Of a stretch of DNA of 13,923 nucleotides, positions 3,001 to 6,000 are shown piece by piece. Position numbers: made by a program. This DNA comes from a virus (taxonomy: Duplodnaviria; Heunggongvirae; Uroviricota; Caudoviricetes): the IMG/VR virus record IMGVR_UViG_2681813227_000021, positions 1 to 13,923 of that record; one strand, written 5' to 3'. Position 1 is the first letter of the stretch; each line of letters begins with the position of its first letter.

Positions 3001-6000
3001 CTTCAGGTGGAGTCCCACCAATAACCGCAGCAAGAGAACCAACAGTAAGATACTGATTTACATGATCATTAGTTATTTGAAATGACATATCAACCACCAT
3101 TTAACATTCATCAAATCTCCAGTTTCTGGTAGAACACCATCAAAACCAAACCATATATGAATTATTATGTTATAAGTAAACAACAAAATCATCATTTGTG
3201 TTTTTTAGATTGCGATTTTTAGTCGCAATCTAAAAACAACTAATTAACTAATGAAGGGAATGTCGTATTAATTACAAGAACAGTTCCTGACGGATAGCTC
3301 TGAATTGTAACTTTACCGTTTGAAAGTATATTAATGAGGGCAACCGATGAATCAGTACCTGATGGAATATAAGAAATATCATTCTTTGGTCTAAACCCTT
3401 CTGGCAATACCATAATAACCGTGCCAACAGATGTATTTCCACCTGTTAAAACAGCAGATAAAGTAACAACGCCCTCGGCTGATTTCTGATATGTTCCACT
3501 TCTTGCCTCACCTACAGACCAACCATTTTGCAATATGCCACTCATATCATACTGATTACCTCGCCATGTACTCCATGTATTCTCACTAATCCTTCCAATC
3601 CTCATTAAGCAAACGCGAGCATTATCTGAAGAATAACCATAATTTTTTTGTACTACTATTCCGTCAACAAATCTATCAACCTGAATAACACCATCAAGAG
3701 GCCAAGAAGCATCATCAGGGTTTGTTCTCCACCATGAAGTCCCCATGTGAAAAGTATTTGGCGGATATGAGCTATTGATGAATTGTATGGAAGAACCATT
3801 GTTAGAAAAAAGGTTGCTACTCCCATTTATAACAGCACACGGTCCATAAATATATTCAAATAATAATTTATGTATCTGTGCGCTAAATGTTGAGTTTGGG
3901 TGTATTCCCCTGCCATCGCCATAAGGGTCATCAAGCCAGTTACCAGCAGATCCTCGCGAATCCTGCCACATACCGTAAGTATCAAAAAACATACACTTAT
4001 ATTGTTTTGCTTTGGCTCTAAGTACGGCTGTTAACTGTTCATACCATTTTTCATCACGTCCGTTTGGTGTGTCTGATGTTGAGTTTGGGGACATGATAAT
4101 AATTGATTGCTGGGAAACTGATTTGTTATTTCGTAACTTGGAAAGGCCTCTATCTAATGCGTCTTTTACTTGATCCAATGTATAACCATAATATGGATCG
4201 TTAATTCCCCATCGTAAAACAATCAAATCAGCAGCAGAAAAAACAGACCATTCCTGATCAATATACCAATTACCCCATTCGTATAGAGTTTTACCTGAAT
4301 GACCTAACGATGTATTTTTTACATCAATAATTCCATACCTCTTTGCATAAAAATCAGCAATAGTTGCTGGTGGCCATAATTCAGAGTTAACACCAACAAT
4401 CGTGGAGTCACCAGACCACAAAATATATGTTTTCTGTGATTTATCCACGCCATCTGCTTTTATCATCTTGCTAATAACATAATTAAGATATTGGTCACCA
4501 GTTACAAAACGGGAACGAGGGTCAGAATACGTTGTTAGTTGAACACCTTCTGTATTAAATACACGCCCCCTGCGTTGCTCAATTTCAACACCATATTCAT
4601 TTAACAATGAAGATACAATTTCATCATCTTTCATCGTAATTACAGTTTGACCGGCTATAGATAAGTTTATGGCTTGCTGTATATTATTCCCTACAGCTCC
4701 AGTTCTTGTAATATCTGGACGCAAAGTACTATCACCACCTTCTATATACCCTTCAAGATAACTTAAAGTTACTGCATCCTGAGGGCTTTCTGGATCTTTA
4801 AGATTTCTAATCCTGTTATTTAAAGCGTCGTACCAGTTTGCAATACTTGATGGCTTGCAAAGTGCAAGACGAAACAAGCTACGACATTGTTGAATCAGCA
4901 TCGTTAGCTTATCAAACGCATCCTCATGCACCTCTGCAAAGAATTTACCCTGATTACGCAGATCTGTTTCCTGAGTAACCGGGAGCTCTCGTGATATAGA
5001 GATCTGATAACCGTTGGCCAATGCCTTCGACAGTATTATATTACCGCCTCTATAGCCTCCCGCACCAGTGACTGCGTAATCAGTATCAAGAGCCAGCACA
5101 GTGATATTCTCGTCAAGGTCAATCACCTGCACCACCAGATCAGATTTCTGGAAAATCCTAAAGGTATAAGGGAACGTAGTTGTAACACCGTTACCTGTAT
5201 ATTCGTTGTGGTCAACTTCGGTTGAGACCGTCATGTTAAATCTCCAGATAGTCGCAGCACCCGTTGCGCCGCATATCCGGTTATTCTATTACCTTAAAAA
5301 CCATATATGGATAGATAACCCATAAATACGAACAGATATTACCTTTCAGGTGATTCGCAAAACGTGCTGGATAGCAAACAAATTATTTGCTACTGTATAT
5401 TTATACAGTTATTGCATGGAGAAGATAAGATGCAGCAGTATCACTATCCACTGGAAGAGGGATTTACCGAAAGGATTCACACGCCGGGAGGCGTCAGATC
5501 ACTGGTGGAGGGATCGCACTTGATGAAATTACTCCGGGATCTCGATAAGGATGGATTTAATGTCGATGGCCCACTTGCCGAACTGACTGCACTGATTAAC
5601 TACGTCACCAGCTCACAGATGTCTATGCAGGATCTGCAAACACATCTCGACTATTGTGCCGAACAATTACGAAAGCAAACCAGATAAGGTTTGCAATTAC
5701 CAAGTGGAGTGCTTATATTTACCTTTGAGGTAAATTTACATCGCACTCCTCTTGTGCCATAGTAATCGGGCACTGGCAAAATCCAGTGCCGGGATTGGCG
5801 TCCCGAGTTACTACAGAGGCACATATGCCGCATAAGCGGTTTTTTTTATGTGTAAAGCGCACCTATTCTATGGTGGGCTGTGTGGGGGCACCGAAAGGTG
5901 CGCCGGGTCCTTTGTAGCCGGTTACGCCAACCCTGCACAGTTCACCACCAACCGATTGGCGTCGGTAGTGGTGATTAACCTAACTACAAAGGTGATCACT

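What the first reader, a model, noticed from the sequence alone, without database searches (positions are those of the whole stretch)
3240..5234. Tailspike carries an SGNH esterase rather than a glycosidase domain
The receptor-binding protein combines a T7 gp17-like virion-attachment domain with a complete SGNH hydrolase block set (GDS, G, GxND, H-P). This points to a receptor-modifying esterase, for example de-O-acetylation of O-antigen or capsule, as described for some podovirus tailspikes such as G7C gp63.1. The ~200-aa C-terminal region after the esterase has no motif I recognise and may be a lectin or chaperone-like domain.
Basis: partly seen in the sequence, partly recalled or inferred. 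Interest (0 to 1): 0.6.

Follow-up and report, generated by a model that had tools for sequence, protein, structure and literature searches.

The report
Prophage tailspike with SGNH esterase domain
The receptor-binding spike of an epsilon15-like prophage in cattle E. coli carries an acetyl-esterase domain and a distal binding knob in place of the usual sugar-cutting beta-helix; several phages are already known to do this.

The parts
3240..5234 (-). Whole tailspike gene (664 codons plus stop at 3240-3242). It is identical to WP_046123179.1, 'SGNH/GDSL hydrolase family protein', of E. coli UTAK-1.
5242..5245 (-). GGAG ribosome-binding site, 7 nt upstream of the ATG.
   Evidence: read from the sequence
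4740..5234 (-). aa 1-165: virion-binding anchor of the epsilon15 gp20 / phiV10 type, distantly T7 gp17-N-like.
   Evidence: 77% identity to the epsilon15-type spike over aa 1-178; phrog_1640, E=1e-111; PDB Dpo31/Dpo36 N-domain, E=4e-27; PF03906 below cut-off; only this part matches DNA of isolated phages
4434..4739 (-). aa 166-267: neck. It contains a degenerate 'GAVGNNIQQAINLS' motif and is homologous to the first ~90 positions of the pectate-lyase-like beta-helix family PF12708, so it looks like a beta-helix cap remnant.
   Evidence: PF12708 positions 1-90 lie immediately before the SGNH domain in homologs P0030, P0032, P0042, P0060; pLDDT 65-80
3849..4433 (-). aa 268-462: SGNH/GDSL esterase domain. 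Codons: Ser277 = 4404-4406, Gly311 = 4302-4304, Asn345 = 4200-4202, His445 = 3900-3902.
3600..3848 (-). aa 463-545: linker (pLDDT ~66-70) and an intermediate beta domain.
3243..3599 (-). aa 546-664: distal knob with the fold of phage receptor-binding heads. The boundary is approximate.

Best explanation
This is the only recognisable receptor-binding protein of an intact epsilon15/phiV10-like temperate podophage integrated between guaA and yfgI of bovine E. coli. It is presumably a trimer, which is inferred and not tested. The N-terminal ~165 aa dock it to the tail. The distal knob binds a surface glycan. The SGNH domain removes O-acetyl groups from that polysaccharide without cutting its backbone. 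Repeated bind-deacetylate-release cycles would then move the virion through the polysaccharide layer to the outer membrane, as described for G7C gp63.1. The most probable substrate is an O-acetylated O-antigen. What is shown: gene integrity, domain architecture, conservation of the catalytic residues, the folds, the prophage context and the modular exchange. What is inferred: trimer state, hydrolytic activity, substrate and the role in adsorption.
For: The ORF is intact and has an RBS. It sits as the last structural gene before the lysis cassette of a complete ~39.5-kb prophage with integrase, terminase, portal, capsid and ejection proteins. The anchor is 77% identical to the epsilon15-type spike. 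Pfam detects the SGNH domain at E=7e-15. Ser, Gly, Asn and His are invariant in 60 of 60 homologs. The model is confident and Foldseek matches SGNH esterases, including esterase-active phage spikes 9d81 and 9d84. In the viral structure library the best hits are tail spikes, including PPWS4 and PP99; PP99 gp55 deacetylates 6-deoxy-L-talose of an O-antigen. The knob has the fold of saccharide-binding phage RBP heads. The UTAK-1 and OkiPb01711 alleles differ at 14 nucleotides but at only 1 amino acid, which indicates purifying selection. Both lysogens' O-antigen clusters (O45, O84) encode hexapeptide acetyltransferases. O45 contains 6-deoxy-L-talose (PMC7685785). The same neck-SGNH-knob module is fused to P22-, TSP1/Gp66-, T7-, tail-collar- and Mtd-type anchors, which is the behaviour expected of a receptor-binding cassette. 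G7C needs its esterase activity and O-unit acetylation for infection (PMC10743462).
Against: No activity or substrate data exist for this protein or for any close relative; the nearest isolated phages are at most 33% identical. Block V lacks the canonical Asp at His-3, where a conserved Arg442 sits instead, so the triad geometry is unverified. Essentially the same spike occurs in an O45 and an O84 lysogen. Only 1 of 30 O45 and 1 of 6 O84 complete genomes carry it, so there is no serotype association to support an O-antigen receptor. That O45's 6dTal is O-acetylated is my recollection and was not verified here. A prophage's current host need not still display the receptor.
Confidence: 0.7

Rival explanations
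1. The enzyme and architecture are the same, but the substrate is a serotype-independent acetylated glycan rather than the O-antigen. Candidates are enterobacterial common antigen (O-6-acetylated GlcNAc) or colanic acid (O-acetylated fucose). This would be a 'key polysaccharide' that lets the phage infect hosts of several O types.
For: The spike differs by one amino acid between an O45 and an O84 lysogen. The two prophages are otherwise different: their lysis genes are 92-97% identical and their ejection genes differ, which suggests separate phages using one spike on different O types. There is no enrichment in either serotype. Both genomes carry the colanic-acid acetyltransferase genes wcaB and wcaF. 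The 'key polysaccharide' idea is set out in PMC10743462.
Against: All characterised esterase spikes of Enterobacterales act on O-antigen or capsule acetyl groups. O-antigen clusters are recombination hot spots, so serotype may have switched after lysogeny; the regions flanking the O-cluster are 2-7% divergent, while the yfgI flank is 100% identical over 6.8 kb. O45 (6-deoxy-L-talose) and O84 (L-fucose pathway genes) might present a similar acetylated 6-deoxy-L-hexose, which is speculative.
Confidence: 0.2
2. The SGNH domain is a lipase, lysophospholipase or thioesterase acting on outer-membrane lipid or lipid A, or it is only a binding scaffold with no catalytic role in infection.
For: Among the best structural matches to the domain are E. 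coli TesA (thioesterase I / lysophospholipase L1) and generic GDSL lipases. Sequence and fold cannot distinguish carbohydrate esterases from lipases. The canonical Asp is absent at His-3.
Against: Ser, Gly, Asn and His are invariant across 60 diverged homologs, which argues for retained catalysis. The domain lies between a neck and a distal glycan-binding knob, far from the membrane-proximal tail tip. Every tested phage spike with this domain is an acetyl esterase on polysaccharide.
Confidence: 0.06
3. The gene is a decaying prophage remnant with no current function.
For: It is found in only 2 of 5,426 complete E. coli genomes. Fragments matching its 3' end appear to exist elsewhere in the same two genomes.
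Against: The ORF is full length inside a complete prophage. The two alleles show 13 synonymous changes against 1 non-synonymous change. The exact protein is on record in 611 blocks of public assemblies; in all 8 contexts shown (25 contigs read) it sits beside yfgI.
Confidence: 0.03

Closest known systems
Escherichia phage G7C tailspike gp63.1 (Prokhorov et al. 2017), with Moo19 gp82 and B2 gp48/49 (PDB 9d81, 9d84)
   Same: All are podophage receptor-binding spikes with an SGNH esterase domain in place of a depolymerase. Moo19 and B2 spikes have measured esterase activity, and G7C needs O-antigen O-acetylation for infection. They are among the best solved-structure matches to the model.
   Different: There is no detectable sequence similarity: neither phmmer nor a family profile finds them in the PDB. 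They belong to virulent N4-like phages with branched spike complexes and different anchors. Here the spike is the single RBP of a temperate epsilon15-like phage and ends in an RBP-head knob.
Pectobacterium phage PPWS4 and PPWS2 tail spikes and the Vibrio phage martha 12B12 tail fibre (uncharacterised), and more distantly PP99 gp55
   Same: PPWS4, PPWS2 and martha 12B12 belong to the same sequence family (29-33% identity across the SGNH domain and, for martha, the C-terminal region). They are the top hits in the viral structure library (E from 1e-36 to 1e-42). PP99 gp55 (Foldseek E=4e-10) is a trimer that deacetylates 6-deoxy-L-talose in an O-antigen.
   Different: They sit on T7-like, SP6-like or other anchors in other host genera. 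None of the close family members has been assayed. PP99 gp55 is only a distant structural relative.
Salmonella phage epsilon15 tailspike gp20
   Same: The N-terminal virion-binding domain is the same (77% identity over 178 aa), as are the genome position and the phage type. By its title, a 2026 preprint reports that gp20 also has a protruding esterase domain (the text could not be read).
   Different: gp20 is 1,070 aa with a right-handed beta-helix, which is the endorhamnosidase from what is known of epsilon15. After aa ~178 there is no similarity to this protein. This spike has no beta-helix beyond a ~100-aa cap remnant.
SGNH-domain receptor-binding proteins of Klebsiella prophages (PLoS Biol 2026, PMC13123978)
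   Same: These are temperate-phage RBPs in which an SGNH domain replaces the beta-helix depolymerase. [quoted passage not shown]
   Different: Their hosts and targets differ (capsule K types), and homology to this protein was not tested here.
P22-type tailspike WP_078081080.1 of E. coli MDR_56 (P0002)
   Same: It carries the same neck-SGNH-knob module (80% identity over aa 174-664), and the SGNH core aa 294-413 is 100% identical.
   Different: It has a P22 head-binding anchor (PF09008) in place of the epsilon15 anchor. The neck is 58% and the knob 70% identical. The host has a different O-antigen cluster.

Membership tests
SGNH/GDSL hydrolase superfamily (Pfam PF13472) | Block I GDS with the nucleophile Ser. 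| tested here: met
   G275-D276-S277; D and S are invariant in 60 of 60 homologs. The Pfam match is above the curated cut-off.
SGNH/GDSL hydrolase superfamily (Pfam PF13472) | Block II Gly and block III GxND Asn (oxyanion hole). | tested here: met
   G311 and G343-I-N345-D346 are invariant in 60 of 60 homologs.
SGNH/GDSL hydrolase superfamily (Pfam PF13472) | Block V DxxH (catalytic His with Asp three residues before it). | tested here: inconclusive
   H445 is invariant, but His-3 is a conserved Arg442 (59 of 60). The conserved acids are D440 (His-5) and D435.
SGNH/GDSL hydrolase superfamily (Pfam PF13472) | Three-layer alpha/beta/alpha flavodoxin-like fold. | tested here: met
   AlphaFold2 pLDDT is 90-98 across the domain. 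Foldseek probability is 1.00 to many solved SGNH esterases, with TM up to 0.78.
Esterase (deacetylase) tailspikes of the G7C gp63.1 kind | The protein is a virion-attached receptor-binding protein. | tested here: met
   The anchor is homologous to the epsilon15-type spike and to PHROG tail proteins. The gene lies in the structural-lysis region of an intact prophage.
Esterase (deacetylase) tailspikes of the G7C gp63.1 kind | Hydrolysis of O-acetyl groups from the host polysaccharide, required for infection. | not testable with these tools
   This needs enzyme assays, NMR and mutant phage.
Esterase (deacetylase) tailspikes of the G7C gp63.1 kind | Homotrimeric assembly. | not tested
   Only monomer models could be made. 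Trimer state is inferred from the epsilon15 gp20 anchor and from the trimeric RBP-head fold.
Phage T7 tail fibre N-terminal domain (Pfam PF03906) | A match at or above Pfam's gathering score. | tested here: not met
   20.3 bits against a cut-off of 25.2, E=4.6e-4, aa 11-161. This is a distant resemblance only. A homolog of the distal module (P0042) does carry a bona fide T7 anchor (E=8e-22).
Epsilon15 gp20-type endorhamnosidase tailspike | A right-handed beta-helix catalytic barrel after the anchor. | tested here: not met
   There is no Beta_helix or pectate-lyase Pfam match and no similarity to gp20 beyond aa 178. The model shows SGNH and beta-sandwich domains instead.
Tailspikes with a C-terminal intramolecular chaperone (Peptidase_S74) | A C-terminal autoproteolytic chaperone domain. 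| tested here: not met
   No such Pfam hit. The C-terminus has an RBP-head fold.
Phage receptor-binding head/knob domains (PSA gp15, TP901-1 ORF49 and p2 RBP heads) | A C-terminal beta-sandwich/barrel head fold at the distal end of an RBP. | tested here: met

The most novel reading that the evidence does not exclude
The spike targets an acetylated glycan that does not depend on O serotype. This could be ECA, colanic acid, or an acetylated 6-deoxy-L-hexose motif shared by unrelated O-antigens. If so, one temperate podophage spike would give entry into E. coli of several O groups, including O45, one of the six main non-O157 Shiga-toxin serogroups (whether these two strains carry Shiga toxin was not checked). 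The knob, and not the esterase, would set host range: the esterase core is 100% conserved between two prophage types while the knob is only 70% identical.
Probability: 0.18. Interest if true: 0.55.

Novelty: new member of a known kind. Interest (0 to 1): 0.27.

Why it matters
The spike adds an epsilon15-like (Uetakevirus-type) temperate coliphage to the growing list of phages that recognise hosts by deacetylating a surface polysaccharide instead of cutting it. It shows that the neck-SGNH-knob cassette moves between epsilon15-, P22-, T7- and other anchor types. In practice, the spike might serve as a typing or engineering module for bovine E. coli of serogroups O45 and O84, but only once its substrate is known. 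The identical spike in two serotypes is a small, testable puzzle about what such esterase spikes actually recognise. Conceptually, nothing here goes beyond published work on G7C, PP99, Moo19/B2 and Klebsiella prophages, and the gene is already annotated as an SGNH hydrolase.

Tried and rejected
1. The 2026 epsilon15 tailspike preprint could not be read under either DOI form, so only its title and the start of its abstract are used.
2. The original O45 (Jann 1995) and O84 (Knirel 2016) structure papers are not held, and the O-antigen review has no held supplements. O-acetylation of these O-units is therefore supported only by the acetyltransferase genes and my recollection.
3. PDB sequence searches with the protein and with the family profile found only generic SGNH enzymes and no phage spike. 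The link to the G7C-type spikes is structural only.
4. I tested for a serotype association. O45 wzy is present in 30 complete genomes and O84 wzy in 6, and only one of each carries the spike. The MDR_56 O-cluster is a third type, and I found no acetyltransferase domain in it. No association emerged.
5. I tried to locate the extra BLAST 'places' for the gene's 3' end in UTAK-1 and OkiPb01711. They are not internal repeats and are not in any locus I could fetch, including the rest of the prophage. They remain unresolved.
6. The promoter and terminator scan around the gene gave nothing beyond consensus noise.
7. An intramolecular chaperone, a lipase role and an acyltransferase role for the SGNH domain were all considered. 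They were rejected or ranked low for the reasons given under the rivals and the membership tests.

Full report
**What is in the sequence.** Window 3240..5234 is a single ATG-to-stop ORF of 664 codons on the minus strand. A GGAG lies 7 nt upstream of the start codon.
- GDS at 275-277 (Ser277)
- GHSG at 311-314
- GIND at 343-346
- GIHP at 443-446 (His445)

Pfam Lipase_GDSL_2 matches aa 275-448 at E=7e-15, 56.4 bits against a cut-off of 32.9.

**Where the window comes from.** The gene is 100% identical to a locus of E. coli UTAK-1, a bovine isolate from the USA. NCBI's pipeline already calls it "SGNH/GDSL hydrolase family protein", WP_046123179.1. It is the last structural gene of a ~39.5-kb prophage integrated between guaA and yfgI. 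The prophage has an integrase, RecT, replication genes, terminase, portal, capsid, T7-gp14-like and SLT ejection proteins. These are followed by a moron region, the spike, and a lysis cassette of two holins, a GH19 endolysin and a DUF2514 spanin. DNA of isolated phages matches only the first ~420 nt of the gene, and those phages are epsilon15/phiV10-type podoviruses (Uetakevirus). No other receptor-binding protein is annotated in the prophage, so this appears to be its only one.

**Domain anatomy.**
- *aa 1-~165, anchor.* This is the epsilon15-type virion anchor. It is 77% identical over aa 1-178 to the 1,070-aa beta-helix spike of an epsilon15-type Salmonella phage, and all similarity stops after that. 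It hits PHROG tail-protein N-termini at E=1e-111 and the N-domain of the solved Klebsiella spikes Dpo31/Dpo36 at E=4e-27. The Pfam T7-tail match is sub-threshold, so "T7 gp17-like" holds only as a distant resemblance.
- *aa ~166-267, neck.* This segment has moderate model confidence. In diverged homologs the equivalent ~90 residues match the start of the pectate-lyase-like beta-helix family PF12708. The neck therefore looks like the surviving cap of a beta-helix spike whose barrel has been replaced.
- *aa 268-462, SGNH domain.* pLDDT is 90-98. Foldseek gives probability 1.00 to TesA, Axe2, sialate O-acetylesterase and others. The top hits by E-value include solved phage proteins (SFP21A Gp09, Shigella phage B2 Gp48/49, Moo19 Gp82).

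**Conservation.** In 60 homologs reaching down to 26% identity, Ser277, Gly311, Asn345 and His445 are invariant, together with D276, T278, G281, D346, D435 and P446. One departure from the textbook motif: the residue three before the His is a family-conserved Arg442, and the conserved acid is Asp440, five before it. Whether Asp440 or Asp435 completes a triad could not be checked without model coordinates. The UTAK-1 allele and the allele in OkiPb01711 differ at 14 nucleotides but at only one amino acid (S374A), which indicates purifying selection.

**Family and modularity.**
- The neck-SGNH-knob unit (aa ~174-664) is a mobile cassette. It is fused to a P22 head-binding domain in a P22-like prophage of E. 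coli MDR_56 (80% identity). Elsewhere it is fused to TSP1/Gp66-type, T7-tail, tail-collar and Mtd-N anchors.
- An exhaustive search of 1.84 billion representative proteins found 832 clusters at E<=0.001 and 249 at E<=1e-30. Most of the best hits align across both the SGNH domain and the distal region. The family is therefore sizeable.
- Among 50,697 isolated phage genomes, the nearest relatives are only 29-33% identical: Vibrio martha 12B12, Pseudomonas 15b, and Pectobacterium PPWS2 and PPWS4. The viral structure library agrees, and also retrieves the PP99 and Possum spikes and the K30 SGNH protein.
- Against the MDR_56 allele, identity is mosaic: neck 58%, SGNH 95% (aa 294-413 are 100% identical), middle domain 82%, knob 70%. 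This suggests that the knob and neck, and not the esterase, carry the variable specificity.

**Mechanism.**
- G7C gp63.1 is a deacetylase whose activity, together with O-unit acetylation, is essential for infection, and it appears to act processively (PMC10743462).
- Moo19 gp82 and B2 gp48/49 hydrolyse p-nitrophenyl acetate and depend on O-antigen modification (PMC11654681).
- PP99 gp55 is a trimer that removes acetyl groups from 6-deoxy-L-talose of an O-antigen (PMC6989608).

By analogy, I conclude that this spike binds a surface polysaccharide through its knob and de-O-acetylates it with the SGNH domain. This is an inference; no activity has been measured.

**Substrate.** I looked for a clue in the hosts.
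- UTAK-1 is O45. Its O-cluster has rmlBCA and a hexapeptide acetyltransferase. O45 contains D-Glc, 6-deoxy-L-talose and D-FucNAc (PMC7685785). That the talose is 2-O-acetylated is my recollection only.
- OkiPb01711 (bovine, Japan) is the only other complete genome with the gene, and it is O84. Its cluster also encodes a hexapeptide acyltransferase.
- The two prophages sit at the same site, and the host flanks are 100% identical over 6.8 kb. Yet their lysis genes are only 92-97% identical and their ejection genes differ. Two different phages therefore carry one spike in two serotypes.
- Only 1 of 30 O45 and 1 of 6 O84 complete genomes have the spike.
- MDR_56 has a third O-cluster, which shares its manB-to-gmd half with O84 at 96% identity.

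The O-antigen remains the most likely substrate, because this class of enzyme acts on O-antigen or capsule in every tested case. The data nevertheless leave room for a serotype-independent glycan (ECA or colanic acid), for a shared acetylated 6-deoxy-L-hexose motif, or for O-antigen switching after lysogeny. Public assemblies list the exact protein in 611 blocks. In all 8 contexts shown (25 contigs read) it sits beside yfgI. Serotyping those assemblies would settle the question.

**Verdict.** Three refinements apply:
- the gene is on the minus strand;
- the anchor is the epsilon15 gp20 type, not T7 proper;
- the C-terminus is an RBP-head knob preceded by a beta-helix-cap remnant and the SGNH domain.

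It is a new member of a well-described kind and is already annotated as an SGNH hydrolase, so interest is modest (0.27). The one open point worth an experiment is the identical spike in O45 and O84 lysogens.

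Noticed in passing
window 6419-6688 and 7670-7939: A 270-nt inverted repeat (90% complementary) gives the BRO-N protein (5848..6687, +) and the P22_AR_N antirepressor (7671..8615, -) a near-identical ~90-aa C-terminus. The repeat arms bracket the YafO-like toxin ORF 6962..7534. ORF 5364..5687 has a related C-terminal motif.
   Followed up: partly
window 3240-3830 (3' end of the spike gene); E. coli UTAK-1 and OkiPb01711 genomes: BLAST reports 2 'places' in UTAK-1 and 2-3 in OkiPb01711 for the last 161-591 nt of the gene, although only these genomes (plus MDR_56) match at all. 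The extra copies are not internal repeats and are not in the prophage or in any locus I fetched. They may be spike-gene fragments elsewhere in these genomes.
   Followed up: partly
window 3240-5234 compared with L004:9001-10995 (OkiPb01711): Essentially the same spike (one amino-acid change, S374A; 13 further nucleotide differences are synonymous) occurs in an O45 and an O84 strain. The host flanks are 100% identical, but the prophage lysis genes are only 92-97% identical and the ejection genes differ.
   Followed up: yes
window 3849-4433 compared with L002:7877-9712 (MDR_56): Identity to the P22-type spike of MDR_56 is mosaic: the SGNH core aa 294-413 is 100% identical, the neck 58% and the knob 70%. 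This suggests recent exchange of, or strong constraint on, the esterase core alone.
   Followed up: yes
window 4434-4739 (aa 166-267): The neck has a degenerate 'GAVG...AI' motif. In distant homologs the same segment matches the first ~90 positions of the pectate-lyase-like beta-helix family PF12708. It looks like a vestigial beta-helix cap ahead of the SGNH domain.
   Followed up: partly
window 3900-3917 (aa 440-445): The family has a variant SGNH block V, D-G-R-G-I-H. A conserved Arg (59 of 60) occupies the canonical Asp position and a conserved Asp lies two residues further upstream.
   Followed up: partly
window 3240-5234: The gene has 39% G+C against 44.6% for the whole window. The distal two-thirds is 37-38% and the anchor-coding part 43%, which fits a horizontally acquired distal cassette.
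   Followed up: no
L005:12370-20165 and L006:6236-14030: The O84 O-antigen cluster and the unnamed MDR_56 cluster share the manB-GT2-manC-gmm-fcl-gmd half at 96% nucleotide identity, while their wzx/wzy halves differ.
   Followed up: no
window 1-1071 and 1291-3100: The window starts in the host genes yfgH and yfgI. The prophage end lies between ~1072 and 1290 and is followed by the lysis cassette: DUF2514 spanin, GH19 endolysin and two holins.
   Followed up: partly
L016:34798-34874 (UTAK-1 prophage, outside the window): A tRNA-Arg gene is annotated inside the prophage, between the terminase and portal genes.
   Followed up: no
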